In this document: one piece after another, positions 1 through 64,000 of the stretch | Position numbering within the stretch: the stretch's first letter is position 1 | How the letters are laid out: the number at the start of each line of letters is the position of its first letter | From: the human T2T-CHM13v2.0 reference genome, Homo sapiens | Assembly: GCA_009914755.4 (NCBI GenBank) | Contig: CP068257.2 | Span: 6,816,001 to 6,880,000 of the forward strand | DNA length: 64,000 bases | Direction of reading: 5' to 3' | Made by a program: the position numbers and the translations under genes | The notes under the pieces: generated by a model | Database searches by the model: none | Seen by the model: the letters and a program-made list of their open reading frames with translations, nothing else | Told to the model about the DNA's origin: nothing

Positions 1-794
1 ATATAATGGAATGGAATGGAAGGGAATGGAATCAACCCAAGTGCATTGGAATGGAATGGAATGCAACGGAATCAACCCGAGAGTAATGGAATGGAAAGGA
101 ATGGAATGGAATGGAAAGAAATGGAATGGAATCAACCCGACAGGAATGGAATGGAATGGTATGGAATCAAACCGAGTGGAATGGAATGGAATGGAATGGA
201 ATGGAATGGAATGGAATGGAATGGAATGGAATGGAATGGAATTTAATGGAGTGCTATGGAATCAACCCGAGTGGAATGGAATGGAATGGAATGGAATGGA
301 ATGGAATGGAATGGAATGGGATGGAATGGAATGCAATGGAATGGAATGGAATGGAATGGAATGGAATGGAATGAACCCGAATGGAATGGAATGGAATGGA
401 ATTGAATGGATTGCAATGGAATGGAATTGATTCAACCCGAGTGGAATGGAATGGAATCGAGTGGAGTTGAATGGAATGGAGTGGAATGGAATGGAATGGA
501 ATGGAATGAAATAAACCCGAATGGAATGGAATGGAATGGAATGGAATGGAATGGAATGGAATGGAAAGGAATCAACCCGAGTGGAGTGGAATGGAATGGA
601 ATTTCATGAAATGGAATGGAATGGAATGGTATGGAATAAACACGACTGGAATGGTATGGAATGGAACGGAATGGAATGGAATAAAATGGAATGGAATGGA
701 ATGGAATCAACTCGAGTGAAATGGAATGGAATGAAATGGAATGGAAAGGAATGTAATCAACCGGAGTGGAGTGGAATGGAATGGAGTAGAATGG

Positions 795-3700
795 AATGGA
801 ATGGAATGGAATGGAATGGAATGGAATGGAATGGAATGCAATGGAACACAACAAAATGGAAAAAACCCGAGTGGAATGGCATGGAATGGAAAGGACTTGA
901 ATATAATGGAATGGATTGGTATCATCCCGATTAGAAATTAATGGAATGGAATGGAATGGAAAGGAATGGAATGGAATGGAACCTACACAAGTGGAATGGA
1001 ATGAAATGGAAATAAATGGAATGGAATAGAATGGAAAGGAATGGAACGGAATGGAATGGAATGGAATGGAATCTACACGAGTGGAATGGAATGGAATGGA
1101 ATTTAATGGAATGGAATGGAATAGAATGGTATGGAATCAACCCGAGTGGAATGGTAAAGAATGCAATGTAATGGAACGGAATGGAATGGAATAAAATGGA
1201 ATGGAATGGAATGGAAACAACCCGAGTTGAATGGAATGGAATGGAATAACCGGAGAGGAATGGAATGGAATGCAGGGTAATGGAATGGAATAGAATGGAA
1301 TGGAATGGAATGGAATAGAATGAAATGGAAAGGAATGGAATAGAAACAACCCGAGTGGAATGGAATGGAATGGAATCCACCCGAGTGGAATGGAATGCAA
1401 TGGAATTGAACGGAATATAATGGAATTGAATAGAATCATCCTGAGTGGAATGGAATGGTATCTAATGCAATGGAGTGGAATGGAACAGAACTGAATGGGA
1501 TGGAAAGAATAGATTGAATCCAAGTGGAATTGAATGGAATGAAATGGATTCGAAAGGAATGGAATGGATTGGAATGGATTGGAATGGAAAGGAATGGATT
1601 CAACCCGAGTGGAATGTAATGGATTGGAATGGAGTGGAATGGAATGGAATGGAATCAACACGAATGGAATGGAACGGAATGGAATGGAATGGTATGGAAT
1701 GAAATAGAAAGGAACGGAATAGAATCAACCAAAGTGGAATGGAATGGAATGGAATGGAAGGGAATCAACACGAGTGGAATTGAATGGAAAGGAATGCAAT
1801 GGAATGGAATGGAATGGAATGGAATGGAATGGAATGGAATTCAATGGAATCAACCCGAGTGGAATGGAATGCTATGGAATGCAATGGAATGGAGTGGAAC
1901 AGAACGGAATGGAATTGCATGGAATTGATTGAATCCGAGTGGAATTGAACGGAAGGGAATGCATTGGAATGGAATGGAAAGGATTCAACCCGAGTGGAAT
2001 GTAATGGAATGGAGTGGAGTGGAATGGAATGGTATGGATTGGAATGGAATGGAATGGAATGGAATCAACACAAAGGGAATGGAATGGAATGGAATAGAAT
2101 GGAAAGGAATGGAATGGAATGGTATGGAATGTAATGTAATGGAATGGAATGGAATGAAATGGAATCAACCGGAATGGAATGGAATGGAATGGAATGGAAA
2201 TGAATCAAACCGAGTGGAATGGAATGGAATGGAATGGAAACAATGCCATGCAATGGTATCAACGGGAATGGAATGCATTGGAATGGAATGGAATGGAATC
2301 ACCCTGAGTGGATAGGAAAGGAATGGAAGGGAATGGAAAGGAATGGAATGGAATGGAAACTAATGGAAGGGAATGGAAACAACCCGAGTGGAATGGAATG
2401 GAATGGAATGGAATGGAATGGAATGGAATGGAATGGAATACAACAAAATGGAAACAACCCGAGTGGAATGGCATGGAATGGAAAGGACCTGAATATAATG
2501 GAATGGATTGGAATCAACCCGATTAGAAACTAATGGAATGGAATGGAATGGAATGGAATGGAATGGAATGGAATGGAATGGATTGGAATTTACCCGAATG
2601 GAATGGAATGTAATGAAATTAAATGGAATGGAAAGGAATGGAAAGGAATGGAATGGAATCTACACGAGTGGAATGGAATTGAATTGAATTTAATGGAATT
2701 GAACGGAATACAATGATATGGAATCAACCCGTGTGGAATGGTATAGAATGTAATGTAATGGAATGGAATGGAATAAAATGGAATGGACTGGAATGGAAAC
2801 AAAACGAGTGGAACGGAATGGAATAACCTGAGAGGAATGGAATGGAATGGAGTGGAATGGAATGGAATAGAATGGAATGGAATGGAATGGAATAGAATGA
2901 AATTGAAAGGAATGGAATGGAAACAACCCGTGTGGAATGGAATGGAAAGGAATCAACCTGAAGGGTATGGAATGGAATGGAATGGAATGGAATGGAATGG
3001 AATGGAATGGAATCAACCAGAGTGGAATGCAATGGAATGAAATGGAATTGAAATGAATGGAATGGAACGGAATGGAACGGAACGGAATTGAATCGAATGG
3101 AATCAACCCAAATTGAAAGGAATGGAATGGAATGGACTGGAATGGAATGGAATGGAATGGAATGGATTGGAATGGATTCAACACAAATGGAATGGAATGG
3201 AACGGAATGGAATAGAATGGAAAGGAGTGGAATGCAATTGAATGGAATGAAATGGAATAAACCCGAATGGAATGGAATGGAATGGAATGGAATGGAATTG
3301 AGTGGAATGGAATAAACACCAGTGGAATGAAATGGAATGGAATGGAATGGAATGAAATCAACACGAGTAGAACGGAACGGAATGGAATGGAATGGAAAGG
3401 AATGGAATCAACTGGAATGGAATGAAATGGAATGGAATGGAGTGGAATGTAATGGAATGCAATGGAATCAACAAGAGTGAAATGCAAAGGAATGGAATGG
3501 AATGGAATGGAATGGAATGGAATGGAATACAACAAAATGGAAAGAACTCGAGTGGAATGGCAAGGAATGGAAAGGACTTGAATAAAATGGAATGGATTGG
3601 AATCAACCCGATTAGAAACTAGTGGAAAGGAATGGAATGGAATGGAATCTGCCCGAGTGGAATGGAATGGAATGGAATTGAATGGAATGGAATGGAGTGG

Positions 3701-6700
3701 AATAGAATAGAATGGAATGGAATGGAACGGAATGGAAGGGAATTGAATGGAATAGAATGGAATCGAATCTACCCGAGTGGAATGGAATGGAAAGGAATTT
3801 AATGGAATGGAAAGGAATGGAATGGAATGGAATGGAATGGAATGGAATGGAATGGAATGGAATAAACACCAGTGGAATGAAATGGAATGGAATGGAATGG
3901 AATGCAATGGAATGGAATGGAATGGAGTGGAATGGAATAAACACCAGTGGAATGAAATGGAATGGAATGGAATGGAATGCAATGGAATGGAATGGAATGG
4001 AATGGAATGGAATGGAATGGAATGGAAACTACTGGAATGGAATGGAAACAACCCGAGTGGAATGGAATGCAATGGAATGGAATGGAATGGAATGACACGG
4101 AATGGAATGGAATGGACTGGAATGGAATTTAAAGGAATGGAATGGAATCAACCCGACTGGAATGGAATGGAATGTAAAGCAGTGAATGGAATGTAATGGA
4201 ATGAAATGGAATGGAATGGAATGGTATGCAATGCAGTGGAATGGATTTGAATGGAATGGAACGGAACGGAACGGAATGGAATGGAATGGAATGGAATGGA
4301 ATGGACACCAATGGAATGGAATGGAATGGAATGGAATTGAATGGAATGGAATGGAATGGATTGGAATGGATGGGAATGGAATGGAACGGAATTAACCGGA
4401 GTGGAATGCAATGGAATGGAATGGAGTGGAATGGAATCAACCCGAGTGGAATGGAATGGAATGGAATGGAATGGAATGGAATGGAATGGAATGGAATCAA
4501 CACGAATGGACTGGAACGGAATGGAATGGAATGGAATGGAATGGAATGGAATGGAATGGAATGGAATGGAATAGTATGGTATGGAATGAAATGGAAAGGA
4601 ACAGAATGGAATCAACCCAAGTGGAGTGGAATAGAATGGAATGGAAGGGAATCAATACGAGTCAAATGGAATGGAGTGGAATGCAATGGAATGGAATGGA
4701 ATGAAATGAAATGGAATGTAATGGAATGGAATGGAATTCAAGGGAATCAATCCGAGTGGAATGGAATGGTATGGAATGCAATGGAATGGAGTGGAACAGA
4801 ACGGAATGGAATGGAATGGAATTGATTGAATCCGAATGGAATTGAATGGAAGGGAATGCATTGGAATGGAATAGAAAGGATTCAACCCGAGTGGAAAGTA
4901 ATGGATTGGAATGGAATGGAAAGGAATAGAATGGAATCAACACAAATGGAATGGAATGGAATGGAATGGAAAGGAATGGATTGCAATGGAATGGAATGGA
5001 ATGGAATGGAATGGAATGCAATGCAATGGAATGGAATGGAATGCAATGCAATGGAATGGAATGGAATAAACCCGAATGGAATGGAATGGAATGGAATGCA
5101 ATGCCATGGAATGGAATGGAATGGAGTGGAATGGAATAAACAGAAGTGGAATGAATTGGAATGGAATGAAATGGAATGGAATGGAATGGAATGGACTGGA
5201 ATGAAATAAACCCGAGTAGAATGGAACGGAATGGATTGGAATGGAAAGGAATTGAATAAACTGGAATGGAATGAAATGGAATGGAAGGGAGTGGAATGGA
5301 ATGGAATACAATGGAATCAACACGAGTGGAATGCAATGCAACGGAAGGGAAAGGAATGGAATGGAACGGAACCAACCCGAGTGGAGTGGAATAAAGTGGA
5401 ATGGAATGGAGTATGATCAACCTGAGTGGAACGGAATGCAATGGAATGGAATGGAATGGAATGGTTTCAACCAGAGTGGAATGGAATGGAATGGAATGGA
5501 ACGGAATGGAATGCAATGGATGTAACTGGAATGGAATGGAATGGAATGGAATGGAATGGAATGGAATGGAATGGAACGGAATCAACATGAGTCAAATGGA
5601 ATGGAATGGAATGGAATGGAATGGAGTCAACACGAATGGACTGGAACGTAATGGAATGGAATGGAATGGAATGGTATGGTTTGGAATGAAATGGAAAGGA
5701 ACGGAATGGAATCAACCCAAGTGGAGTGGAATAGAATGGAATGGAAGGGAATGAAGACGAGTCAAATGGAATGGAATGGAATGCAATGGAAAGGAAAGGA
5801 ATGCAATGAAATGGAATGGAATGGAATGGAATGGAATGCAATGGAATGGAATGGAATTCAGTGAAATGGAATGGAATAGAATGGAATGGAATAGAATGGA
5901 ATCTACTGTAATGGAATGGAAACAACCAGAGTGGAATGGAATGGAATGGAATGGAATGGAATGGAATGGAATGGAATGGAAAGGAACGGAATGTAAAGGA
6001 ATGGAATGGAATCAACCCGACTGGAATGGAATGGAATGGAAAGGAATGAATGGAATGAATGGAATGGAATGGAATGGAATGGAATGGAATGGAATTGTAT
6101 GGAATACAATGATATGGAATTGAATGGAATGGAACGGAATGGAACGGAATGGAATGGAATGGACCCCAATGGAATGGAATGGAATGGAATGGATTGGAAT
6201 GGAATGGAACGGAATTAACCCGAGTGGAATGGAATGGAATGGAATGGAGTGGAATGGAATGGAATGGAATGGAATGGAATGGAATGGAATGGAAAGGAAT
6301 CAACCCGAGTGGAATGCAATGAAATGGAATGCAATGGAATGGAATGGTATGGAATCAACCCTAGTGAAATGGTATGGAATGGAATGGAATGGAACAGAAT
6401 GGAATGGAATCATCCCGAATGGAATGGAAAGGAATGGAGAGGAATGGTACGGTATGGAATGGAATGGAAAGGAATCAACCCGAAGGTTATGGAATGGAAT
6501 GCAATGGAATGGAATGGGATCAACCCGAGTGGAATGCAATCGAATAAAATGGAATGGAATGAAACGGAAAGGAACGGAATGGAACGGAATTGAAAGGAAT
6601 GGAATCAAACCGAGTGGAAAGGAATGGAATGGAATGAAATGCAATGGTGTGGAATGGAACGGATAGGAATAACATGCAATCGACTTTAGTGGAATGGTAT

Positions 6701-8600
6701 GGAATGGAATAATATGCAATCAACTTTGGTGGAATGGTATGGAATGGAATGGAAAGGAATGGAATGGAATGGAATAAAAGGGCATGGAATGGAATGAAAT
6801 CAACCCGAATGGAATGGAACGGAATGGAGTAGAATGGTATAGAATGGAATGGAATGGAAAGGAATCAACCTGAAGGGTATGGAATGGAATGGAATGGAAT
6901 GGAATTGAATTGAATGGAATGGAATGGAATCAACCAGAGGGGAATGCAATGAAATGAAATGGAATGGAATGGAACGGAAAGCAACGGAACGGAACGGAAT
7001 TGAATGGAATGGAATGAACCCGAGTGGAAAGGAATGGAATGGAATGGAATGGAATGGAATAACATGCAATCAACTTTGGTGGAATGGTATGGAATGGAAT
7101 GGAATGGAATGGAATCGAATGGAATGGAATCAACCCGAGTGGAATGCAATGGAATGAAAAGGAATGGAATGGAACGGAACGGAACGGAACGGAACGGAAT
7201 TGAATGGAATGGAATCAACCCGAGGGGAAAGGAATGGAATGGAATGGAATGGAATGGAATGGAATGGAATGGAATGGAATGGAATAAAAGGGCATGGAAT
7301 GGAATGGAATCATCCCGAGGGGAATGGAATGGAATGGAATGGAATGAAATGGAAATGAATCAAACCGAGTGGAATTTAATGTAATATAATGTAATGGAAT
7401 GGAATGGAAACAATGCAATGCAATGATATCAACTGGAATGGAATGCATTGGAATGGAATGGAATGGAATCACCCTGAGTGGAAAGGAATAGAATGGAATG
7501 GAAAGGAATGTAATGGAATGGAAACTAATGGAACGGAATGGAAACCACCAGAGTGGAATGGAATGCAATGGAATGGAATCGAATGGAATGGAATGGAATG
7601 GAATGGAATGGAATGGAATGGAATACAACAAAATGGAAACAACCCGAGTGGAATGGCATGGAATGAAAAGGATTGAATATAATGGAATGGATTGGAATCA
7701 ACCCGATTAGAAACTAATGGAATGGAATGGAATGGAATGGAATGGAATGGAATGGAATGGAATGGAATCTAACCTAGTGGAATGGAAAGGAATGGAATTT
7801 AAAGAAATGAAATGGAATGGAATGGAACAGAATTGAATGGAATGGAATGGAATGGAATCTACCCGAGTGAAATGGAATGGAATGGAATTTAATGGAATGG
7901 AATGGTATAGAATGTAATGGAATCAACCCCAGTGGAATGGTATAGAATGTAATGTAATGGAATGGAATGGAATAAAATGGAATGGAATGGAAACAACCCG
8001 AGTGGAATGGAATGGAATAACCGGAGAGGAATGGAATGGAATGGAGTGGAATGGAATGGAATAGAATGGAATAGAATGGAATGGAATAGAATGAAATTGA
8101 AAGGAATGGAATGGAAACCACCCGAGTGGAATGGAATGGAATGGAATGGAATGCAATGGAAACATCCCGAGTGGAATGGAAAGGAATGGAATGGAACGGA
8201 ATATAATGGAATGGAATGGAAACATCCCGAGTGGAATGGAATGGTATGGAATGCAATTGAATGGTATGGAACAGAACGGAATGAAATGGAATGCAATAGA
8301 TTGCGAGTGGAATTGAATGGAATGGAATGGATTGGAATGGAATGGAAAGGATTGGAGTGGAATGGAATGGAATCAACAAGAATGGAATGGAAAGGAATGG
8401 AATGGAATGGAATGGAATGGAATGGAATGGAATGGAATGGAATGGAATGGTAAGGAACAGAATGGAAACAACCCGAGTGGAATGGAATGGAATGGACTGT
8501 AATCCACCCGAGTGGAATGGAATGTAATGGAATTGAACGGAATATAATGGAATTGAATGGAATCATCCCGAGTCGAATGGAATGGTATCTAATGCAATGG
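795..8600. repeat. HSat3 higher-order repeat copy 1 (~7.8 kb)
   Basis: It aligns to 8600-16480 at an offset of ~7805-7913 bp. For example 841-940 equals 8641-8740, and the 525-nt stretch 1137-1661 gives the same 174-aa artefact ORF as 8943-9467. The non-pentameric marker cccgattagaaa(c/t)ta(a/g)tgg occurs at 920, 2517, 3607 and 7697, and again at 8730, 10347, 11447 and 15610. Confidence 0.85.
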
Positions 8601-11600
8601 AATGGAATGGAATGGAATGGAATGGAATGGAATGGAATGCAATGGAACACAACAAAATGGAAAAAACCCGAGTGGAATGGCATGGAATGGAAAGGACTTG
8701 AATATAATGGAATGGATTGGTATCATCCCGATTAGAAATTAATGGAATGGAATGGAATGGAAAGGAATGGAATGGAATGGAACCTACACAAGTGGAATGG
8801 AATGAAATGGAAATAAATGGAATGGAATAGAATGGAAAGGAATGGAACGGAATGGAATGGAATGGAATGGAATGGAATCTACCCGAGTGGAATGGAATGG
8901 AATGGAATTTAATGGAATGGAATGGAATAGAATGGTATGGAATCAACCCGAGTGGAATGGTAAAGAATGCAATGTAATGGAACGGAATGGAATGGAATAA
9001 AATGGAATGGAATGGAATGGAAACAACCCGAGTTGAATGGAATGGAATGGAATAACCGGAGAGGAATGGAATGGAATGCAGGGTAATGGAATGGAATAGA
9101 ATGGAATGGAATGGAATGGAATAGAATGAAATGGAAAGGAATGGAATAGAAACAACCCGAGTGGAATGGAATGGAATGGAATCCACCCGAGTGGAATGGA
9201 ATGCAATGGAATTGAACGGAATATAATGGAATTGAATAGAATCATCCTGAGTGGAATGGAATGGTATCTAATGCAATGGAGTGGAATGGAACAGAACTGA
9301 ATGGGATGGAAAGAATAGATTGAATCCAAGTGGAATTGAATGGAATGAAATGGATTCGAAAGGAATGGAATGGATTGGAATGGATTGGAATGGAAAGGAA
9401 TGGATTCAACCCGAGTGGAATGTAATGGATTGGAATGGAGTGGAATGGAATGGAATGGAATCAACACGAATGGAATGGAACGGAATGGAATGGAATGGTA
9501 TGGAATGAAATAGAAAGGAACGGAATAGAATCAACCAAAGTGGAATGGAATGGAATGGAATGGAAGGGAATCAACACGAGTGGAATTGAATGGAAAGGAA
9601 TGCAATGGAATGGAATGGAATGGAATGGAATGGAATGGAATGGAATGCAATGGAATTCAATGGAATCAACCCGAGTGGAATGGAATGCTATGGAATGCAA
9701 TGGAATGGAGTGGAACAGAACGGAATGGAATTGCATGGAATTGATTGAATCCGAGTGGAATTGAACGGAAGGGAATGCATTGGAATGGAAAGGAAAGGAT
9801 TCAACCCGAGTGGAATGTAATGGAATGGAGTGGAGTGGAATGGAATGGTATGGATTGGAATGGAATGGAATGGAATGGAATCAACACAAAGGGAATGGAA
9901 TGGAATGGAATAGAATGGAAAGGAATGGAATGGAATGGTATGGAATGTAATGTAATGGAATGGAATGGAATGAAATGGAATCAACCGGAATGGAATGGAA
10001 TGGAATGGAATGGAATGGAATGGAATGGAATGGAATGGAAATGAATCAAACCGAGTGGAATGGAATGGAATGGAATGGAAACAATGCCATGCAATGGTAT
10101 CAACGGGAATGGAATGCATTGGAATGGAATGGAATGGAATCACCCTGAGTGGATAGGAAAGGAATGGAAGGGAATGGAAAGGAATGGAATGGAATGGAAA
10201 CTAATGGAAGGGAATGGAAACAACCCGAGTGGAATGGAATGGAATGGAATGGAATGGAATGGAATGGAATGGAATACAACAAAATGGAAACAACCCGAGT
10301 GGAATGGCATGGAATGGAAAGGACTTGAATATAATGGAATGGATTGGAATCAACCCGATTAGAAACTAATGGAATGGAATGGAATGGAATGGAATGGAAT
10401 GGAATGGAATGGATTGGAATTTACCCGAATGGAATGGAATGTAATGAAATTAAATGGAATGGAAAGGAATGGAAAGGAATGGAATGGAATCTACACGAGT
10501 GGAATGGAATTGAATTGAATTTAATGGAATTGAACGGAATACAATGATATGGAATCAACCCGTGTGGAATGGTATAGAATGTAATGTAATGGAATGGAAT
10601 GGAATAAAATGGAATGGACTGGAATGGAAACAAAACGAGTGGAACGGAATGGAATAACCTGAGAGGAATGGAATGGAATGGAGTGGCATGGAATGGAATA
10701 GAATGGAATGGAATGGAATGGAATAGAATGAAATTGAAAGGAATGGAATGGAAACAACCCGTGTGGAATGGAATGGAAAGGAATCAACCTGAAGGGTATG
10801 GAATGGAATGGAATGGAATGGAATGGAATGGAATGGAATGGAATCAACCAGAGTGGAATGCAATGGAATGAAATGGAATTGAAATGAATGGAATGGAACG
10901 GAATGGAACGGAACGGAATTGAATCGAATGGAATCAACCCAAATTGAAAGGAATGGAATGGAATGGACTGGAATGGAATGGAATGGAATGGAATGGAATG
11001 GAATGGATTGGAATGGATTCAACACAAATGGAATGGAATGGAACGGAATGGAATAGAATGGAAAGGAGTGGAATGCAATTGAATGGAATGAAATGGAATA
11101 AACCCGAATGGAATGGAATGGAATGGAATGGAATTGAGTGGAATGGAATAAACACCAGTGGAATGAAATGGAATGGAATGGAATGGAATGAAATCAACAC
11201 GAGTAGAACGGAACGGAATGGAATGGAATGGAAAGGAATGGAATCAACTGGAATGGAATGAAATGGAATGGAATGGAGTGGAATGTAATGGAATGCAATG
11301 GAATCAACAAGAGTGAAATGCAAAGGAATGGAATGGAATGGAATAGAATGGAATGGAATGGAATACAACAAAATGGAAAGAACTCGAGTGGAATGGCAAG
11401 GAATGGAAAGGACTTGAATAAAATGGAATGGATTGGAATCAACCCGATTAGAAACTAGTGGAAAGGAATGGAATGGAATGGAATCTGCCCGAGTGGAATG
11501 GAATGGAATGGAATTGAATGGAATGGAATGGAGTGGAATAGAATAGAATGGAATGGAATGGAACGGAATGGAAGGGAATTGAATGGAATAGAATGGAATC

Positions 11601-51169: not shown

Positions 51170-53571
51170 GCAGCAACACAGGTTCCCCATGAGAAAAATC
51201 AAACTCAGGGAAAATAAAACCACAAGGGTTCACTCTGTTCTGACCTTTGAAAAACACAGCACAGACAGTGGCCCTTAGGACCAAGAGCAGGAGATCCGTA
51301 ATCCCGTCACCACGGCGATAGGGCACAAACATTGCAGGGTGAGGGCACAATCCACATTGTGAGGTCCAACTGCCTCCGGGAAGACAGAAGTGCTTTTACA
51401 TAGACCCAAAGGTCATTGAAGGCTCAGTGTTTTGTTTCAAAAACTAAATCCCAAGCCCAGACATTATTATGCTGCGCTTCTTAAAACAAGTTATGAGATG
51501 GGAAATAGGGCACCCACAAATATACCTATACATTATGTATATAATAGTATATAGAATCATATATATAATATATGTAACATATATATATAATATTCTTTTA
51601 CACCCTGCATCTTATATTATATATATTATATGTAATATAATAATTGAAAATATATAAGTATAATATTTATACAATATGACATATAATAATTATATTTTAT
51701 GACATATATAATATATATTATATATCATATATAGAATATATTATATGGTTAATATACGTACTAAATATATACTATACATTATATATATTATATCTATTAT
51801 ATCTATGTTATATATAACATACATTATAGATAATATATATATCATATCTATGTTATATATAATATAAAATAACAAAATAATATAATTATATATATATAAT
51901 ATGACATATAATATATATTATATTTTATGACATATATATAATATATATTATATATTATATATGTAATACGTTGTATGTATAATGCATACATTTAATATAT
52001 ATGATATGTGTACGTTATTAATTATATGTAATATATGTTATATATTATATATTTTACATGGAATACACATGTTACATATAATATATACTATGGTACCTAT
52101 AACGTATAATTTATTATATATAATATACTGTATGTCACATATTATATATAATTCATATTATACAGTATGTGGAATGTGGTATATATGACATGTAATATAT
52201 GATATATATAACATACAATATATCATATATAACATACAATATATGATACATAATATATATGGTATACAAAATATATATTATGACATATATTGTATATGTT
52301 TTATATTATATGATATATAACTATTTAAAATTATATATAACTGTATAATATTATACGTAAATATATAATATAATAAACATGACTATATATTATGTTATAT
52401 ATAATTTTATTACATACGTTACATAATATATCATAATATACTGCATATATTATATTATTTTATATTACATAATATATATTATATATCACATAATATATGC
52501 TGCATACATAATATTAAAATATATATTATATTATGATATATGAAATATCGTATATATTATGTATCCTATATTGTATAATATACATGACATATTATATAAC
52601 ATGTATGTTGTCTATCATATGATATATAAAATTATATATATGATTATATTGTTATACATATAACGATATAAATATGTAATTATATGTATCATTATTTATC
52701 TTATATATTATTATATAATCATTTATAATTATTTATATTATATAAATAATTAAATGATTCTACAAATTATAATATATAAATTATACTATGTAATAAAAAA
52801 TATATATATTATATATCATATATGATATAGTATATATGTTATATATCATATTATATATAAATATATGTTATGTTATATACAATTATATCTTTTCATATAT
52901 AAGATGTATAATATGTATTATCTATTATATATGTTATGTACTATATATAATGTAAATAAGCTGACACAGGATAAATATTACATCTTATGATATATAATAT
53001 CTATGAGGTTATATATTACATATAAAGCATATTACAAAACATATAATATATATCATGTATAATTTTTTTTTAGACAGAGCCTTGTCCTGTTGCACAGCGT
53101 GGGGTACAATGGCGCCATCTTTACTCACTTCAACATCTGCCTCACGGGTTCAAGCGATTGTCCTCCCTCAGCCTCCCAGGTAGCTGGGAGTACACCACAC
53201 TGGGACTACACCAGCTGCCACCATGCCTAGCTAAATTTTTGGATTTTTAGTAGTGACAGCGTTTCACTGTATTGGCCAGGATGGTCTTGATCTCTTCACC
53301 TTGTGATCCCCTTGCCTTGGCCTCCAAATTTCCTGGGATTACAGGCCTGAGCCAAGATACATGTTTTTTAAATGAAAAAGAATTTCAAAGCTACTCTGCT
53401 TGGGACAAGAATCAAATATATAAACTGAGGAATAAAACATAACCATGAAACATATTTATAACTGCATATGGAAAATACAGAGGATAATTTTTTAAATAAC
53501 ATGTTTTGAAAGCATTAACTAGTAATTTGAAGAGTTGGCATTTGAAAGGCCCGTATGAATATACCTTCAAA
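51170..53571. repeat. 2.4-kb unit U3, variant type C (head)
   Basis: It carries tatatataatattcttttac, atgcatacatttaatat and gacatgtaatatatgat...catacaatatatgatacat. It shares the TMVPITYN and YIYNILL artefact-ORF variants with U7. Its tail Alu has the cttcaac variant. Confidence 0.8.
53063..53353 (-). mobile_element. Alu fragment (unit copy)
   Basis: Periodic copy. It carries the ctcacttcaac variant. Confidence 0.9.
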
Positions 53572-55968
53572 GCAGCAACACAGGTTCCCCATGAGAAAAA
53601 TCAAACTCAGGGAAAATAAAACCACAAGGGTTCACTCTGTTCTGACCTTTGAAAAACACAGCACAGACAGTGGCCCTTAGGACCAAGGGCAGGAGATCCC
53701 TACTCCCGTCACCACGGCGATAGGGCACAAACATTGCAGGGTGAGGGCACAATCCACATTGTGAGGTCCAACTGCTGCCGGGAAGACAGGAGTGCTTTTA
53801 CATAGACCCAAAGGTCATTGAAGGCTCAGTGTTTTGTTTCAAAAACTGAATCCCAAGCCCACACCTTATTATGCTGCGCTTCTTAAAACAAGTTAGGAGA
53901 TGGGAAATAGGGCACCCACAAATATATCTATACATTATGTATATAATAGTATATAGAATCATATATATAATATATGTAACATATATATATACTATTCTTT
54001 TACACCCTGCATCTTATATTATATATATTATATGTAATATAATAATTCAAAATATATAAGTATAATATTTATACAATATGACATATAATAATTATATTTT
54101 ATGACATATATAATATATATTATATATCATATATAGAATATATTATATGGTTAATATACGTACTAAATATATAATATACATTATATATATTATATCTATT
54201 ATATCCATGTTATATATAACATACATTATAGATAATATATATATTATATCTATGTTATATATAATATAAAATAACATAAAATAATATAATTATATATATA
54301 ATATGACATATAATATATATTATATATAATGACATATATATAATATATATTATATATTATATAGGTAATACGTTGTATGTATAATGCATATATTAAATAT
54401 ATATGATATGTCTACGTTATTAATTATATGTAATATATGTTATATATTATATATTTTACATGGAATACACATGTTACATATAATATATACTATGTTACCT
54501 ATAACGTATAATTTATTATATATAATATACGTAAGTCATATATTATATATAATTCATAATATACAGTATGTGGAATGTGGTATATATGACATGTAATATA
54601 TGATATATATAACATACAATACATCATATATAACAAAGAATATATGATACATAATATATATGGTATACAAAATATATATTATGATATATATTATATATGT
54701 TTTATATTATATTATATATAACTATTTAAAATTATATATAACTGTATAATATTATACGTAAATATATAATATAACATGACTATATATTATGTTATATATA
54801 ATTTTATTACATACGTTACATAATATATGATAATATAATGCATATATTATATTATTTTATATTCCATAATATATATTATATATCACATAATATATGCTGC
54901 ATACATAATATTAAAATATATATTATATTATGATATATGAAATATCGTATATATTATGTATCCTATATTGTATAATATACATTATATATTATATAACATG
55001 AATGTTGTCTATCATATGATATATAAAATTATATATATGATTATATTGTTATACATATAACGATATAAATATGTAATTATATGTATCATTATTTATCTTA
55101 TATATTATTATATAATCATTTATAATTATTTATATTATATAAATAATTAAATGATTCTAAAAATTATAATATATAAATTATACTATGTAATAAAAAATAT
55201 ATATATTATATATCATATATGATATAGTATATATGTTATATATCATATTATATATAAATATATGTTATGTTATATACAATTATATCTTTTCATATATAAG
55301 ATGTATAATATGTATTATCTATTATATATGTTATGTACTATATATAATGTAAATAAGCTGACACAGGATAAATATTACATCTTATGATATATAATATCTA
55401 TGAGGTTATATATTACATATAAAGCATATTACAAAACATATAATATATATCATGTATAATTTTTTTTTAGACAGAGCCTTGTCCTGTTGCACAGCGTGGG
55501 GTACAATGGCGCCATCTTTACTCACTTCAACATCTGCCTCACGGGTTCAAGCGATTGTCCTCCCTCAGCCTCCCAGGTAGCTGGGAGTACACCACACTGG
55601 GACTACACCAGCTGCCACCATGCCTAGCTAAATTTTTGGATTTTTAGTAGTGACAGCGTTTCACTGTATTGGCCAGGATGGTCTTGATCTCTTCACCTTG
55701 TGATCCCCTTGCCTTGGCCTCCAAATTTCCTGGGATTACAGGCCTGAGCCAAGATACATGTTTTTTAAATGAAAAAGAATTTCAAAGCTACTCTGCTTGG
55801 GACAAGAATCAAATATATAAACTGAGGAATAAAACATAACCATGAAACATATTTATAACTGCATATGGAAAATACAGAGGATAATTTTTTAAATAACATG
55901 TTTTGAAAGCATTAACTAGTAATTTGAAGAGTTGGCATTTGAAAGGCCCGTATGAATATACCTTCAAA
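53572..55968. repeat. 2.4-kb unit U4, variant type D (head)
   Basis: It carries ttaggagatgg, cacaccttattatg, ccctactcccg, ataggtaatacg and atacgtaagtcatat. The tail resembles the U3 tail (ttatttatcttatat; Alu cttcaac). Confidence 0.8.
55461..55750 (-). mobile_element. Alu fragment (unit copy)
   Basis: Periodic copy. It carries the ctcacttcaac variant. Confidence 0.9.
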
Positions 55969-58365
55969 GCAGCAACACAGGTTCCCCATGAGAAAAATCA
56001 AACTCAGGGAAAATAAAACCACAAGGGTTCACTCTGTTCTGACCTTTGAAAAACACAGCACAGACAGTGGCCCTTAGGACCAAGGGCAGGAGATCCCTAC
56101 TCCCGTCACCACGGCGATAGGGCACAAACATTGCAGGGTGAGGGCACAATCCACATTGTGAGGTCCAACTGCTGCCGGGAAGACAGGAGTGCTTTTACAT
56201 AGACTCAAAGGTCATTGAAGGCTCAGTGTTTTGTTTCAAAAACTGAATCCCAAGCCCACACCTTATTATGCTGCGCTTCTTAAAACAAGTTAGGAGATGG
56301 GAAATAGGGCACCCACAAATATATCTATACATTATGTATATAATAGTATATAGAATCATATATATAATATATGTAACATATATATATACTATTCTTTTAC
56401 ACCCTGCATCTTATATTATATATATTATATGTAATATAATAATTCAAAATATATAAGTATAATATTTATACAATATGACATATAATAATTATATTTTATG
56501 ACATATATAATATATATTATATATCATATATAGAATATATTATATGGTTAATATACGTACTAAATATATAATATACATTATATATATTATATCTATTATA
56601 TCCATGTTATATATAACATACATTATAGATAATATATATATTATATCTATGTTATATATAATATAAAATAACATAAAATAATATAATTATATATATAATA
56701 TGACATATAATATATATTATATATAATGACATATATATAATATATATTATATATTATATAGGTAATACGTTGTATGTATAATGCATATATTAAATATATA
56801 TGATATGTCTACGTTATTAATTATATGTAATATATGTTATATATTATATATTTTACATGGAATACACATGTTACATATAATATATACTATGTTACCTATA
56901 ACGTATAATTTATTATATATAATATACGTAAGTCATATATTATATATAATTCATAATATACAGTATGTGGAATGTGGTATATATGACATGTAATATATGA
57001 TATATATAACATACAATACATCATATATAACAAAGAATATATGATACATAATATATATGGTATACAAAATATATATTATGATATATATTATATATGTTTT
57101 ATATTATATTATATATAACTATTTAAAATTATATATAACTGTATAATATTATACGTAAATATATAATATAACATGACTATATATTATGTTATATATAATT
57201 TTATTACATACGTTACATAATATATGATAATATAATGCATATATTATATTATTTTATATTCCATAATATATATTATATATCACATAATATATGCTGCATA
57301 CATAATATTAAAATATATATTATATTATGATATATGAAATATCGTATATATTATGTATCCTATATTGTATAATATACATTATATATTATATAACATGAAT
57401 GTTGTCTATCATATGATATATAAAATTATATATATGATTATATTGTTATACATATAACGATATAAATATGTAATTATATGTATCATTATTTATATTATAT
57501 ATTATTATATAATCATTTATAATTATTTATATTATATAAATAATTTTATGATTATATAAATTATAATTTATAAATTATACTATGTAATAAAAAATATATA
57601 TATTATATATCATATATGATATAGTATATATGTTATATATCATATTATATATAAATATATGTTATGTTATATACAATTATATATTTTCATATATAAGATG
57701 TATAATATGTATTATCTATTATATATGTTATGTAGTATATATAATGTAAATAAGCTGACACAGGATAAATATTACATATTATGATATATAATATATATGA
57801 GGTTATATATTACATATAAAGCATATTACAAAACATATAATATATATCATGTATAATTTTTTTTTAGACAGAGCCTTGTCCTGTTGCACAGCGTGAGGTA
57901 CAATGGTGCCATCTTTACTCACTGCAACATCTGCCTCACGGGTTCAAGCGATTGTCCTCCCTCAGCCTCCCAGGTAGCTGGGAGTACACCACACTGGGAC
58001 TACACCAGCTGCCACCATGCCTAGCTAAATTTTTGGATTTTTAGTAGTGACAGCGTTTCACTGTATTGGCCAGGATGGTCTTGATCTCTTCACCTTGTGA
58101 TCCCCTTGCCTTGGCCTCCAAATTTCCTGGGATTACAGGCCTGAGCCAAGATACATGTTTTTTAAATGAAAAAGAATTTCAAAGCTACTCTGCTTGGGAC
58201 AAGAATCAAATATATAAACTGAGGAATAAAACATAACCATGAAACATATTTATAACTGCATATGGAAAATACAGAGGATAATTTTTTAAATAACATATTT
58301 TGAAAGCATTAACTAGTAATTTGAAGAGTTGGCATTTGAAAGGCCCGTATGAATATACCTTCAAA
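55969..58365. repeat. 2.4-kb unit U5, mosaic: D-type head (~1.5 kb identical to U4) + B-type tail
   Basis: The head shares every U4-specific variant. The tail has aataattttatgattatataaattataat and Alu gcgtgaggtac, as in U0 and U2. Confidence 0.8.
57858..58147 (-). mobile_element. Alu fragment (unit copy)
   Basis: Periodic copy. It carries the gtgaggtacaatggtgcc variant. Confidence 0.9.
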
Positions 58366-60767
58366 GCAGCAACACAGGTTCCCCATGAGAAAAATCAAAC
58401 TCAGGGAAAATAAAACCACAAGGGTTCACTCTGTTCTGACCTTTGAAAAACACAGCACAGACAGTGGCCCTTAGGACCAAGAGCAGGAGATCCCTAATCC
58501 CGTCACCACGGCGATAGGGCACAAACATTGCAGGGTGAGGGCACAATCCACATTGTGAGGTCCAACTGCTGCCGGGAAGACAGGAGTGCTTTTACATAGA
58601 CCCAAAGGTCATTGAAGGCTCAGTGTTTTGTTTCAAAAACTGAATCCCAAGCCCACACATTATTATGCTGCACTTCTTAAAACAAGTTATGAGATGGGAA
58701 ATAGGGCACCCACAAATATATCTATACATTATGTATATAATAGTATATAGAATCATATATATAATATATGTAACATATATATATACTATTCTTTTACACC
58801 CTGCATCTTATATTATATATATTATATGTAATATAGTAACTGAAAATATATAAGTATAATATTTATACAATATGACATATAATAATTATATATTATGACA
58901 TATATAGTATATATTATATATCATATATAGAATATATTATATGGTTAATATACGTACTAAATATATAATATACATTATATATATTATATATATTATATCT
59001 ATGTTATATATAACATACATTATAGATAATATATATATTATATCTATGTTATATATAATATAAAATAACAAAAAAAAATAAAATTGTATATATATAAAAT
59101 GACATATAATATATATTATATTTTATGACATATATAATATATATTATATATTATATATGTAATACGTTGTGTGTATAATGCATACATTAAATATATATGA
59201 TATGTGTACGTTATTAATTATATGTAATATATGTTATATATTATATATTTTACATGGAATACACATGTTACATATAATATATACTATGTTACCTATAACG
59301 TATAATTTATTATATATAATATACTGTATGTCACATATTATATATAATTCATATTATACAGTATGTGGAATGTGGTATATATGACATGTAATATATGATA
59401 TATATAACATACAATATATCATATATAACATACAATATATGATACATAATATATATGGTATACAAAATATATATTATGATATATATTGTATATGTTTTAT
59501 ATTATATGATATATAACTATTTAAAATTATATATAACTGTATAATATTATACGTAAATATATAATATAATAAACATGACTACATATTATGTTATATATAA
59601 TTTTATTACATACGTTACATAATATATCATAATATACTGCATATATTATATTATTTTATATTACATAATATATATTATATATCACATAATATATGCTGCA
59701 TACATAATATTAAAATATATATTATATTATGATATATGAAATATCGTATATATTATGTATCCTATATTGTATAACATACATGACATATTATATAACATGT
59801 ATGTTGTCTATCATATGATATATAAAATTATATATATGATTATATTGTTATACATATAACGATATAAATATGTAATTATATGTATCATTATTTATATTAT
59901 ATATTATTATATAATCATTTATAATTATTTATATTATATAAATAATTAAATGATTATACAAATTATAATATATAAATTATACTATGTAATAAAAAATATA
60001 TATATTATATATCATATATGATATAGTATATATGTTATATATCATATTATATATAAATATATGTTATTTTATATACAATTATATATTTTCATATATAAGA
60101 TGTATAATATGTATTATCTATTATATATGTTACGTACTATATATAATGTAAATAAGCTGACACAGGATAAATATTACATATTATGATATATAATATCTAT
60201 GAGGTTATATATTACATATAAAGCATATTACAAAACATATAATATATATCATGTATAATTTTTTTTTAGACAGAGCCTTGTCCTGTTGCACAGCGTGGGG
60301 TACAATGGCGCCATCTTTACTCACTGCAACATCTGCCTCACGGGTTCAAGCGATTGTCCTCCCTCAGCCTCCCAGCTAGCTGGGAGTACACCACACTGGG
60401 ACTACACCAGCTGCCACCATGCCTAGCTAAATTTTTGGATTTTTAGTAGTGACAGCGTTTCACTGTATTGGCCAGGATGGTCTTGATCTCTTCACCTTGT
60501 GATCCCCTTTCCTTGGCCTCCAAATTTCCTGGGATTACAGGCCTGAGCCAAGATACATGTTTTTTAAATGAAAGAGAATTTCAAAGCTACTCTGCTTGGG
60601 ACAAGAATCAAATATATAAACTGAGGAATAAAACATAACCATGAAACATATTTATAACTGCATATGGAAAATACAGAGGATAATTTTTTAAATAACATAT
60701 TTTGAAAGCATTAACTAGTAATTTGAAGAGTTGGCATTTGAAAGGCCCGTATGAATATACCTTCAAA
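58366..60767. repeat. 2.4-kb unit U6, variant type A
   Basis: Across 58830-58935 it is identical to U1 46850-46955, including tagtaactg, tatattatgac and tatagtatat. Confidence 0.8.
60260..60549 (-). mobile_element. Alu fragment (unit copy)
   Basis: Periodic copy. Confidence 0.9.
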
Positions 60768-63169
60768 GCAGCAACACAGGTTCCCCATGAGAAAAATCAA
60801 ACTCAGGGAAAATAAAACCACAAAGCTTCACTCTGTTCTGACCTTTGAAAAACACAGCACAGACAGTGGCCCTTAGGACCAAGAGCAGGAGATCCCTAAT
60901 CCCGTCACCACGGCGATAGGGCACAAACATTGCAGGGTGAGGGCACAATCCACATTGTGAGGTCCAACTGCTGCCAGGAAGACAGGAGTGCTTTTACATA
61001 GACCCAAAGGTCATTGAAGGCTCAGTGTTTTGTTTCAAAAACTGAATCCCAAGCCCACACATTACTATGCTGCGCTTCTTACAACAAGTTATGAGATGGG
61101 AAATAGGGCACCCACAAATATATCTATACATTATGTATATAATAGTATATAGAATCATATATATAATATATGTAACATATATATATAATATTCTTTTACA
61201 CCCTGCATCTTATATTATATATATTATATGTAATATAATAATTGAAAATATATAAGTATAATATTTATACAATATGACATATAATAATTATATTTTATGA
61301 CATATATAATATATATTATATATCATATATAGAATATATTATATGGTTAATATACGTACTAAATATATACTATACATTATATATATTATATCTATTATAT
61401 CTATGTTATATATAACATACATTATAGATAATATATATATCATATCTATGTTATATATAATATAAAATAACAAAATAATATAATTATATATATATAATAT
61501 GACATATAATATATATTATATTTTATGACATATATATAATATATATTATATATTATATATGTAATACGTTGTATGTATAATGCATACATTTAATATATAT
61601 GATATGTGTACGTTATTAATTATATGTATTATATGTTATATATTATATATTTTACATGGAATACACATGTTACATATAATATATACTATGGTACCTATAA
61701 CGTATAATTTATTATATATAATATACTGTATGTCACATATTATATATAATTCATATTATACAGTATGTGGAATGTGGTATATATGACATGTAATATATGA
61801 TATATATAACATACAATATATCATATATAACATACAATATATGATACATAATATATATGGTATACAAAATATATATTATGACATATATTGTATATGTTTT
61901 ATATTATATGATATATAACTATTTAAAATTATATATAACTGTATAATATTATACGTAAATATATAATATAATAAACATGACTATATATTATGTTATATAT
62001 AATTTTATTACATACGTTACATAATATATCATAATATACTGCATATATTATATTATTTTATATTACATAATATATATTATATATCACATAATATATGCTG
62101 CATACATAATATTAAAATATATATTATATTATGATATATGAAATATCGTATATATTATGTATCCTATATTGTATAATATACATGACATATTATATAACAT
62201 GTATGTTGTCTATCATATGATATATAAAATTATATATATGATTATATTGTTATACATATAACGATATAAATATGTAATTATATGTATCATTATTTATATT
62301 ATATATTATTATATAATCATTTATAATTATTTATATTATATAAATAATTAAATGATTCTACAAATTATAATATATAAATTATACTATGTAATAAAAAATA
62401 TATATATTATATATCATATATGATATAGTATATATGTTATATATCATATTATATATAAATATATGTTATGTTATATACAATTATATCTTTTCATATATAA
62501 GATGTATAATATGTATTATCTATTATATATGTTATGTACTATATATAATGTAAATAAGCTGACACAGGATAAATATTACATCTTATGATATATAATATCT
62601 ATGAGGTTATATATTACATATAAAGCATATTACAAAACATATAATATATATCATGTATAATTTTTTTTTAGACAGAGCCTTGTCCTGTTGCACAGCGTGG
62701 GGTACAATGGCGCCATCTTTACTCACTGCAACATCTGCCTCACGGGTTCAAGCGATTGTCCTCCCTCAGCCTCCCAGGTAGCTGGGAGTACACCACACTG
62801 GGACTACACCAGCTGCCACCATGCCTAGCTAATTTTTTGGATTTTTAGCAGTGACAGCGTTTCACTGTATTGGCCAGGATGGTCTTGATCTCTTCACCTT
62901 GTGATCCCCTTGCCTTGGCCTCCAAATTTCCTGGGATTACAGGCCTGAGCCAAGATACATGTTTTTTAAATGAAGAAGAATTTCAAAGCTACTCTGCTTG
63001 GGACAAGAATCAAATATATAAACTGAGGAATAAAACATAACCATGAAACATATTTATAACTGCATATGGAAAATACAGAGGATAATTTTTTAAATAACAT
63101 ATTTTGAAAGCATTAACTAGTAATTTGAAGAGTTGGCATTTGAAAGGCCCGTATGAATATACCTTCAAA
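60768..63169. repeat. 2.4-kb unit U7, variant type C
   Basis: It shares the atgcatacatttaatat, TMVPITYN and YIYNILL variants with U3. Private changes are caaagcttcac and ctgccaggaag. Confidence 0.8.
62661..62951 (-). mobile_element. Alu fragment (unit copy)
   Basis: Periodic copy. Confidence 0.9.
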
Positions 63170-64000
63170 GCAGCAACACAGGTTCCCCATGAGAAAAATC
63201 AAACTCAGGGAAAATAAAACCACAAGGGTTCACTCTGTTCTGACCTTTGAAAAACACAGCACAGACAGTGGCCCTTAGGACCAAGAGCAGGAGATCCCTA
63301 ATCCCGTCACCACGGCGATAGGGCACAAACATTGCAGGGTGAGGGCACAATCCACATTGTGAGGTCCAACTGCTGCCGGGAAGACAGGAGTGCTTTTACA
63401 TAGACCCAAAGGTCATTGAAGGCTCAGTGTTTTCTTTCAAAAACTGAATCCCAAGCCCACACATTATTATGCTGCGCTTCTTAAAACAAGTTATGAGATG
63501 GGAAATAGGGCACCCACAAATATATCTATACATTATGTATATAATAGTATATAGAATCATATAAATAATATATGTAACATATATATATACTATTCTTTTA
63601 CACCCTGCATCTTATATTATATATATTATATGTAATATAATAATTGAAAATATATAAGCATAACATTTATACAATATGACATATAATAATTATCTTTTAT
63701 GACATATATAATATATATTATATATCATATATAGAATATATTCTATGGTTAATATACGTACTAAATATATAATATACATTATATATATTATATCTATTAT
63801 ATCTATGTTATATATAACATACATTATACATAATATATATTATATCTATGTTACATATAATATAAAATAACATAAAATAATATAATTGTATGTATATAAT
63901 ATGACATATAATATATATTATATTTTATGACATATATATAATATATATTATATATTATATATGTAATACGTTGTATGTATAATGCATATATTAAATATAT
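63170..64000. repeat. 2.4-kb unit U8 (partial; the window ends)
   Basis: It has the anchor plus the GC-richer segment and the beginning of the AT-rich tract. It shares tgttttctttcaaaaac with U1 and is otherwise the common type. Confidence 0.75.

What the first reader, a model, noticed from the sequence alone, without database searches (positions are those of the whole stretch)
1..64000. Three-satellite junction (HSat3 | 42-bp satellite I | HSat1B/DYZ2-type 2.4-kb array) with no unique sequence: Yq12-like heterochromatin
The window goes directly from 37 kb of HSat3 into 6.9 kb of 42-bp satellite I and then into at least 20 kb of a 2.4-kb AT-rich+Alu composite repeat. From established knowledge, a 2.4-kb AT-rich unit carrying an Alu is the hallmark of DYZ2 (HSat1B). 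DYZ2 is most abundant on Yq12, where it alternates with HSat3 (DYZ1) blocks, and small amounts lie on acrocentric short arms. The HSat3 here shows a ~7.8-kb period, with variants of 4.3-5.6 kb, rather than the ~3.56-kb DYZ1 period I recall. That caveat keeps the chromosomal origin open. I did not expect the 6.9-kb satellite I block between the two arrays from what I remember of DYZ1/DYZ2 boundaries, and it is worth checking.
Basis: partly seen in the sequence, partly recalled or inferred. Interest (0 to 1): 0.5.

Follow-up and report, generated by a model that had tools for sequence, protein, structure and literature searches.

The report
Acrocentric-type three-satellite junction, not Yq12
The window is pure primate heterochromatin in which three known satellite DNAs (HSat3, the 42-bp HSat1A and the 2.4-kb Alu-bearing HSat1B) abut with no spacer; this arrangement is already annotated on human acrocentric short arms, and the window does not fit the Y-chromosome long arm.

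Summary
HSat3 (GGAAT)n covers 5-37,058. It is followed by 165 copies of a 42-bp AT-rich unit up to about 43,972. Then come 8.35 units of a 2.4-kb composite (AT-rich stretch, 5'-truncated Alu, GC-richer part) running to the window end. There is no unique DNA, transposon or inversion in between.

One correction: the "7.8-kb period" of the HSat3 is a single recent tandem duplication (824-8,624 and 8,625-16,650, over 99% identical). It is not an array-wide period.

The family calls (HSat3, HSat1A/SAR, HSat1B/HSATI) are right. The Yq12 lean is not.
- The HSat3 has no match to the DYZ1 (HSat3A6) marker 24-mer, has no 3.6-kb period, and sits closest to the B1/B3 markers.
- The 2.4-kb units are about 2,400 bp long and only about 90% identical to a 2,420-bp variant that matches the published Y DYZ2 consensus descriptors. 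They also lack that variant's ACATACG junction motif.
- The published T2T-CHM13 satellite table lists HSat3(B3) directly abutting "HSat1B,A" arrays on chr21 and chr22. Related pairs occur on chr13, chr14 and chr15.

Verdict: an ordinary, already annotated acrocentric short-arm satellite junction. Interest is low.

The parts
5..37058 (+). HSat3 array, (GGAAT)n on the + strand, carrying 115 CAACC[CT]GA[GA][TC] decamers. Uninterrupted, with no inversion or transposon.
   Evidence: TRF period 5; composition; decamer counts, all on one strand; purity scan.
824..8624 (+). Copy A of a recent tandem duplication of about 7.8 kb inside the HSat3 array.
   Evidence: 24-mer lag analysis; MAFFT alignment shows 99.4-99.9% identity with indels.
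8625..16650 (+). Copy B of the same duplication, plus about 125 bp of a third copy.
37054..37058 (.). HSat3 to 42-bp junction: ...GGAATGGAATG|AAATATCAAAGTACC. It is abrupt, with at most a few bases of overlap.
   Evidence: Sequence read directly; the TRF arrays overlap by 4 bp.
37055..43972 (+). HSat1A/SAR-type 42-bp satellite: 164 full monomers plus an 11-bp partial one. The consensus ACATAAAATATCAAAGT + ACCCAAA(C/A)TATATATTATATACTGT gives 17 + 25 bp. GC is 21%.
   Evidence: TRF; monomer decomposition; junction read.
43962..43980 (.). 42-bp to 2.4-kb junction: ...AACATTGAATG|CAGCAACACAGG. In consensus form both partners read TCAAAG immediately 5' of the break (42-mer ATATCAAAG|TACCC; 2.4-kb unit ACCTTCAAAG|CAGCAAC).
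   Evidence: The microhomology is read from the sequence; its role in forming the junction is inference.
43973..64000 (+). HSat1B (HSATI/DYZ2-type) array: 8 full units of 2,390-2,410 bp and one partial unit, cut by the window end.
53563..55959 (+). Example unit (u5). About 390 bp is GC-richer HSATI sequence, about 1.5 kb is AT-rich (6-19% GC, degenerate 7-9-bp TA repeats), an Alu lies at 55,461-55,751 on the minus strand, and about 210 bp of HSATI sequence follows.
   Evidence: Consensus GC profile and Alu position; TRF periods 7 and 9; Alu hits; sub-threshold Rfam hit to mir-1268 at 55,564-55,630 on the minus strand, inside the Alu.

Best explanation
The window is constitutive heterochromatin from the proximal short arm of an acrocentric chromosome, most likely human chr21 or chr22, less likely chr13 or chr14. 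A B-type HSat3 array (CHM13 label B3) abuts a small HSat1A (42-bp SAR) block, which in turn abuts an HSat1B (2.4-kb AT-rich + Alu + HSATI) array.

Nothing here is coding or known to be functional as a unit.

Shown:
- Each block is a head-to-tail array.
- The HSat3 contains a recent tandem duplication of about 7.8 kb.
- The HSat1B unit next to the boundary is the most divergent of the units.
- The junctions are abrupt.

Inferred:
- The arrays grew and are homogenised by unequal exchange or replication slippage.
- The junctions arose by illegitimate joining; the HSat1A|HSat1B junction falls at a TCAAAG microhomology.
- The whole module was copied among acrocentric arms by segmental duplication and ectopic exchange.
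For: 1. Adjacency. The CHM13 cenSat table (Altemose et al. 2021 preprint, Table S1) lists these neighbours:
- hsat3_21_6(B3) | hsat1_21_2(HSat1B,A)
- hsat3_21_9(B3) | hsat1_21_3(HSat1B,A)
- hsat1_22_2(HSat1B,A) | hsat3_22_8(B3)
- hsat3_22_17(B3) | hsat1_22_3(HSat1A,B)
- hsat3_14_11(B3) | hsat1_14_4(HSat1A,B)
- hsat1_13_3(HSat1B) | hsat3_13_6(B3) and hsat1_14_3(HSat1B) | hsat3_14_7(B3)
. In that table HSat1A means RepeatMasker SAR and HSat1B means HSATI.

2. HSat3 type. Against the 14 subfamily marker 24-mers of Altemose 2014 Table 1, the HSat3 has 7 near-matches (at most 1 mismatch) to B1 and 4 to B3. It has 0 to A6 (DYZ1), A5, A3 and A1, 1 to A4 and 2 to A2. It carries the CAACCCGAGT-type decamer 115 times.

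3. HSat1B is not Y-type. Among human-contaminant metagenome contigs recovered with a 20-mer, one variant (C2) is 2,420 bp long. It has ACATACG exactly at the HSATI/AT-rich junction, 24.2% GC and 1 CpG per 151 bp. Hallast et al. describe the Y DYZ2 consensus in just these terms: 2,420 bp, ACATACG at that junction, 24% GC, 1 CpG per 150 bp. The window units are 89.5-90.2% identical to C2. They are 2,390-2,410 bp long and read ATATATC at that site. The T2T-Y paper reports Y copies as mostly over 98% identical to their consensus.

4. No DYZ1-like period. There is no 3.5-3.6-kb period. CpG density is 1 per 58 bp, against 1 per 35 bp reported for DYZ1.
Against: - No reference genome could be aligned, so placement rests on annotation tables and marker features, not on a mapping.
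- None of the 14 marker 24-mers, including B3's, matches exactly, so the B3 label is by nearest neighbour and by context.
- Equating cluster C2 with Y DYZ2 is an inference from four published descriptors. The three exact C2 copies come from contigs with similar accession prefixes and may not be independent.
- Abundance in the protein database did not single out one variant.
- That the decamer marks B-type HSat3 is my recollection; it is not stated in the papers I read.
- The species was not established directly.
Confidence: 0.85

Rival explanations
1. A DYZ1/DYZ2 block boundary in Yq12 of the human Y chromosome, with an unusual HSat1A spacer.
For: Yq12 is by far the largest store of HSat1B and alternates with HSat3 blocks. 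The unit anatomy is the same as DYZ2. Peripheral Y blocks are somewhat more divergent.
Against: - The HSat3A6 marker is absent even at 1 mismatch in 37 kb.
- There is no 3.5-3.6-kb unit.
- The HSat1B units form a homogenised variant (97-99% identical to each other) that is about 10% from the inferred Y consensus. They are about 20 bp shorter and lack ACATACG at the HSATI/AT-rich junction.
- The T2T-Y paper's main text never mentions HSat1A.
Confidence: 0.05
2. The chr15 short-arm junction between the large D15Z1 HSat3 array (A5, A2) and hsat1_15_3(HSat1B,A).
For: The CHM13 table has a 449-kb HSat1B,A array abutting hsat3_15_7(A5,A2). A 2025 pedigree study notes a block of diverged HSat3 between the chr15 HSat3 and HSat1B arrays.
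Against: The HSat3A5 marker has 0 hits even at 2 mismatches in 37 kb, and A2 has only 2 at 1 mismatch. The nearest markers are B1/B3. That study describes diverged HSat3, not HSat1A, lying next to the HSat1B.
Confidence: 0.06
3. The orthologous or paralogous module in a non-human great ape genome, or an assembly mis-join of three satellite contigs.
For: The species is not given. HSat1A and HSat3 are shared among African apes. Satellite junctions are error-prone in assemblies.
Against: - Fragments 96-98.6% identical to the window's unit variant occur in metagenome contaminant contigs, which are typically of human origin.
- The same three-part adjacency is annotated repeatedly in CHM13.
- The edge unit shows the divergence expected of a real array border.
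- Both joins fall in phase with clean repeat ends.
Confidence: 0.04

Closest known systems
T2T-CHM13 acrocentric short-arm module HSat3(B3) | hsat1(HSat1B,A), e.g. chr21 hsat3_21_6 | hsat1_21_2 and chr22 hsat1_22_2 | hsat3_22_8
   Same: The same three satellite families are directly adjacent. The HSat1 part holds a larger HSat1B share and a smaller HSat1A share. The HSat3 is B-type. The array sizes are compatible with at least 37 kb of HSat3 and at least 27 kb of HSat1.
   Different: Sequence identity to those loci could not be measured here. The table merges HSat1A and HSat1B into one entry, so the internal order (HSat1A next to the HSat3) is shown only by this window.
Yq12 DYZ1 (HSat3A6) / DYZ2 (HSat1B) alternating blocks
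   Same: An HSat3 array lies next to a 2.4-kb array of AT-rich + Alu + HSATI units. The HSat1B block has 24% GC.
   Different: - No 3.5-3.6-kb DYZ1 unit and no A6 marker.
- Units of about 2,400 bp rather than 2,413/2,420 bp.
- About 10% divergence from the inferred DYZ2 consensus.
- No ACATACG at the HSATI/AT-rich junction.
- A 6.9-kb HSat1A block sits between the arrays.
Classical satellite I / SAR (HSat1A) arrays of chr3, chr4, chr13 and the acrocentric distal arms
   Same: A 42-bp unit made of a 17-bp A part and a 25-bp B part, very AT-rich.
   Different: The block here is small (6.9 kb). It has no clear higher-order period such as the 378-bp 9-mer reported for the large arrays.

Membership tests
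HSat3 (classical satellite III) | Array derived from the pentamer GGAAT/CATTC | tested here: met
   TRF period 5, consensus AATGG, 7,419 copies. 79.5% of 5-mers lie within 1 mismatch of a GGAAT rotation.
HSat3A6 = DYZ1 (Y-specific) | Nested tandem repeat unit of about 3.5-3.6 kb | tested here: not met
   No such lag appears. The only strong long lag, 7.8-7.9 kb, comes from one duplication.
HSat3A6 = DYZ1 (Y-specific) | Subfamily-specific 24-mers (top marker TCGTTTCGATTCCTTTCCATTCCA, Altemose 2014 Table 1) | tested here: not met
   0 exact matches and 0 with at most 1 mismatch in 37 kb. Only the single top marker could be tested, because the stored full marker list is truncated.
HSat3A6 = DYZ1 (Y-specific) | About 38% GC and about 1 CpG per 35 bp (Hallast et al.) | tested here: not met
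   40.6% GC and 1 CpG per 58 bp. This is a weak criterion.
HSat3 subfamily B3 (acrocentric and chr20 type) | Subfamily-specific 24-mers, or classification by the chm13_hsat tool | tested here: inconclusive
   The top B3 marker has 0 exact matches and 4 at up to 1 mismatch. The related B1 marker has 7, and all A markers have 2 or fewer. The full classifier is not available here.
HSat1A (SAR, Dfam DF0001062) | 42-bp unit composed of alternating A (17 bp) and B (25 bp) parts, extremely AT-rich | tested here: met
   Period 42, 165 copies, 21% GC. The consensus splits as 17 + 25 bp.
HSat1A (SAR, Dfam DF0001062) | Sequence match to the Dfam/RepeatMasker SAR model | not testable with these tools
   No Dfam or RepeatMasker here. 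The resemblance to the pTRI-6/SAR consensus is from memory only.
HSat1B (HSATI, DYZ2-type composite) | Unit of about 2.4-2.5 kb = AT-rich simple repeat + 5'-truncated diverged Alu + GC-richer HSATI part | tested here: met
   Units of 2,390-2,410 bp. The three-part anatomy is present, with an Alu covering AluY positions 13-288 at about 20% substitution divergence. Units are 84-98% identical to HSat1B-like units in 19 metagenome contaminant contigs.
Y-linked DYZ2 (the Yq12 form of HSat1B) | Modal unit 2,413 bp / consensus 2,420 bp, with ACATACG at the HSATI/AT-rich junction | tested here: not met
   Units are 2,390-2,410 bp. The site reads CCCACAAATATATCTATAC, and ACATACG occurs only about 1.25 kb into the unit.
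Y-linked DYZ2 (the Yq12 form of HSat1B) | Copies mostly over 98% identical to the Y consensus | tested here: not met
   The units are 89.5-90.2% identical to cluster C2, which matches all four published Y descriptors. Equating C2 with the Y consensus is inferred, not proven.
Acrocentric short-arm HSat3(B3) | HSat1(A,B) module of T2T-CHM13 | Direct adjacency of HSat3 to an array containing both HSat1B and HSat1A | tested here: met
   Window anatomy compared with the cenSat table rows.
Acrocentric short-arm HSat3(B3) | HSat1(A,B) module of T2T-CHM13 | Sequence alignment to those loci | not testable with these tools

The most novel reading that the evidence does not exclude
The 6.9-kb HSat1A wedge and its two exact breakpoints (GGAATG|AAATATC, and ...CAAAG|CAGCAAC at a TCAAAG microhomology) may be a single ancestral junction. 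If so, every HSat3(B3) | HSat1 module on chr13, chr14, chr21 and chr22 inherited it. It would then be a precise marker for dating and ordering the segmental duplications and ectopic exchanges among acrocentric short arms, and for testing the proposed direction of HSat1B spread between the Y and the acrocentrics.
Probability: 0.3. Interest if true: 0.3.

Novelty: already known. Interest (0 to 1): 0.08.

Why it matters
It matters little beyond bookkeeping. The window illustrates a satellite junction that the T2T-CHM13 cenSat annotation already records. The practical lesson is that a 2.4-kb Alu-bearing HSat1B array next to HSat3 is not diagnostic of the Y chromosome. Unit length, the ACATACG junction motif, the HSat3 subfamily and the presence of HSat1A separate acrocentric copies from Yq12. 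This is relevant to sex-chromosome read assignment and to contamination screens.

Tried and rejected
- Rfam at gathering threshold over 43-64 kb found nothing. At the E-value threshold the only hit was a sub-threshold one to mir-1268 inside the Alu.
- The full list of subfamily-specific 24-mers (Altemose 2014 Dataset S2) is stored truncated and holds only HSat2A1 in the part read. Only the 14 top markers from Table 1 could be used.
- DYZ1 PCR primers recalled from memory had no match within 3 mismatches (Y1.1). I could not verify the primers in the library, so I give them no weight.
- The T2T-Y supplements returned nothing for probe or primer terms or for HSat1A. All six terms scored zero, so I treat this as uninformative.
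- The genome-contig scan gave one hit in a Tateyamaria contig (58% GC) that showed no HSat1B homology.
- Five viral-contig scans found nothing: three variant-specific HSat1B junction 29-mers, and the A6 and B3 markers.
- A protein-database search with the 76-codon open frame of the unit was meant to rank variants by abundance. It gave only 26 small clusters with no clear dominant type, so it is inconclusive.
- Homology between the 42-bp unit and the AT-rich part of the 2.4-kb unit is rejected. They share only a TA-rich 13-mer, and the CAAAGTACCCAAAC half is absent.
- An array-wide 7.8-kb HSat3 higher-order repeat is rejected.
Full report
**What is in the window**

Composition splits the window into three parts:
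- about 40% GC with strong G>C skew up to about 37 kb
- about 21% GC with C>G skew from 37 to 44 kb
- 20-27% GC with no skew from 44 kb to the end

TRF reports a pentamer array (AATGG, 7,419 copies) over 5-37,058. It reports a 42-bp array (165 copies, 82% matches) over 37,055-43,963. Beyond that it finds only degenerate 7-9-bp TA repeats.

K-mer autocorrelation of the last block peaks at 2,397-2,402 bp and at multiples of that lag. BLAST of the first unit against the rest shows full-length matches at about 96% starting at 43,959. A recalled AluY consensus hits once per unit on the minus strand (AluY positions 13-288, about 75% identity, E about 1e-54 to 1e-57). Rfam gives a sub-threshold hit to mir-1268 inside that Alu segment; from memory, mir-1268 is an Alu-derived family.

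**Anatomy of each block**

*HSat3.* The array is uninterrupted and lies on one strand. No 100-bp window falls below 50% near-GGAAT 5-mers, and there are no reverse-strand pentamers. It carries 115 CAACC[CT]GA[GA][TC] decamers, all on the + strand.

It comes from one tandem duplication, 824-8,624 and 8,625-16,650, at 99.4-99.9% identity with small indels. The remaining 20 kb shows only scattered local duplications.

*42-bp block.* It consists of 164 monomers plus an 11-bp partial one. Mean divergence from consensus is 10.9% and is flat along the block. The consensus splits as ACATAAAATATCAAAGT (17 bp) + ACCCAAA(C/A)TATATATTATATACTGT (25 bp). This is the A+B structure described for SAR/HSat1A.

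*2.4-kb block.* There are 8 full units of 2,390-2,410 bp. They are 97.3-99.4% identical to one another, except for the unit at the boundary (95.7-96.3%). In + strand order each unit has:
- about 390 bp of GC-richer sequence
- about 1.5 kb at 6-19% GC
- an antisense Alu
- about 210 bp more of moderately AT-rich sequence

[quoted passage not shown] The 42-bp unit and the AT-rich part share only a TA-rich 13-mer, so the two satellites are unrelated.

**Junctions**

HSat3 passes into the 42-bp array as ...GGAATGGAATG|AAATATCAAAGTACC.

The 42-bp array ends 11 bp into a monomer and joins the 2.4-kb unit as ...AACATTGAATG|CAGCAACACAGG. In consensus form both partners read TCAAAG just 5' of the break. 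That is compatible with a microhomology-mediated join, but this is inference. There is no unique sequence at either junction.

**Chromosomal origin: Yq12 or acrocentric**

Three independent lines point away from Yq12.

*1. The HSat3 is not DYZ1.* I tested the top subfamily-specific 24-mers of Altemose 2014 (Table 1).
- The HSat3A6 (DYZ1) marker has 0 matches even at 1 mismatch in 37 kb.
- A5, A3 and A1 also have 0; A4 has 1 and A2 has 2.
- The nearest markers are B1 (7 near-matches) and B3 (4).

There is no 3.5-3.6-kb unit. CpG density is 1 per 58 bp, against 1 per 35 bp reported for DYZ1.

*2. The HSat1B units are not the Y form.* A 20-mer that is invariant in the window units retrieved 24 metagenome contigs, and 19 of them carry HSat1B-like units. 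These are presumably human contamination, a phenomenon the T2T-Y paper documents for bacterial RefSeq genomes.

The units fall into variants. One variant, C2, is 2,420 bp long. It has ACATACG exactly at the HSATI/AT-rich junction, 24.2% GC and 1 CpG per 151 bp. Hallast et al. describe the Y DYZ2 consensus as 2,420 bp, with ACATACG at that junction, 24% GC and 1 CpG per 150 bp. I therefore take C2 to be the Y form.

The window units are 89.5-90.2% identical to C2 and 91.5-92.2% identical to a second variant, C1. They are about 20 bp shorter and read ATATATC at the junction site. Y copies are reported to be mostly over 98% identical to their consensus.

*3. The arrangement is already annotated on acrocentric arms.* The CHM13 cenSat table in the Altemose et al. 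2021 preprint lists HSat3(B3) arrays directly abutting arrays labelled HSat1B,A or HSat1A,B:
- twice on chr21
- twice on chr22
- once on chr14

It also lists HSat1B | HSat3(B3) pairs on chr13 and chr14, and HSat1B,A | HSat3(A5,A2) on chr15. In that table HSat1A means RepeatMasker SAR and HSat1B means HSATI, and subfamilies are listed largest first.

The window needs at least 37 kb of HSat3 followed by 6.9 kb of HSat1A and at least 20 kb of HSat1B. That fits the chr21 and chr22 entries best. The chr15 reading is disfavoured by the complete absence of the A5 marker.

The T2T-Y paper's main text never mentions HSat1A.

**Limits**

- I could not align the window to any human assembly, so the placement is by features and annotation.
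- No marker 24-mer matches exactly, so the B3 label rests on nearest markers and on context.
- Equating C2 with the Y consensus rests on four published descriptors.
- A protein-database search meant to rank variants by abundance was uninformative.
- That the decamer marks B-type HSat3 is my recollection and is not stated in the papers I read.

**How it works**

This is non-coding constitutive heterochromatin.

Shown:
- tandem organisation of all three blocks
- a very recent 7.8-kb duplication in the HSat3
- homogenised HSat1B units with a more divergent edge unit, which is the pattern reported for DYZ arrays

Inferred:
- growth and homogenisation by unequal exchange
- junction formation by illegitimate recombination
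- spread of the module among acrocentric arms by segmental duplication and ectopic exchange

**Verdict**

The family assignments are right, but the Yq12 attribution is not. The window is an acrocentric-type HSat3(B) | HSat1A | HSat1B junction that public annotation already records. It is already known and of low interest.

Noticed in passing
window 824-16650: A single, very recent tandem duplication of about 7.8 kb inside the HSat3 array (99.4-99.9% identity, with small indels). It mimics a higher-order period.
   Followed up: yes
window 46370-63160: The HSat1B units show no regular multi-unit higher-order repeat, but there are pairs of near-identical units at irregular distances: u5~u6 at 99.4%, u4~u8 at 99.2%, u2~u7 at 99.1%. 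This suggests several local duplications of different sizes.
   Followed up: partly
L002-L025 (metagenome contigs): 19 of 24 public metagenome contigs sharing one 20-mer with the window are HSat1B units, presumably human contamination. They fall into at least three variants about 8-10% apart. Several contigs join units of different variants, which could be either chimeric assembly or real mixed arrays.
   Followed up: partly
L022 (locus 2-5851; contig BNJT01002008.1, 54 kb): A long metagenome contig carries three adjacent HSat1B-like units that differ strongly from each other (97%, 91% and 88% identical to the inferred Y form). The source organism and array type are unknown.
   Followed up: no
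window 53567-53794 minus strand, and the same place in every unit: A 76-codon stop-free frame in the GC-richer part of the unit is kept in all three HSat1B variants. Gene callers have turned it into 131-aa 'hypothetical proteins' in public databases (P0001, P0002, P0005, P0009, P0010). It is most likely a spurious ORF.
   Followed up: partly
window 44580-45867 and the AT-rich part of every unit: The AT-rich segment matches other AT-rich segments on both strands at about 68% identity. It is therefore built from a quasi-palindromic TA-rich simple repeat. This is consistent with the reported enrichment of inverted and mirror repeats in HSat1B.
   Followed up: no
L013 1-320 and 2617-3690; L002 1-1649: Contaminant contigs holding the units most like the window's (96-98.6% identical) also contain about 1-1.6 kb with no match above 80% to the HSat1B unit. 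This could be array-flanking sequence or a chimeric join.
   Followed up: no
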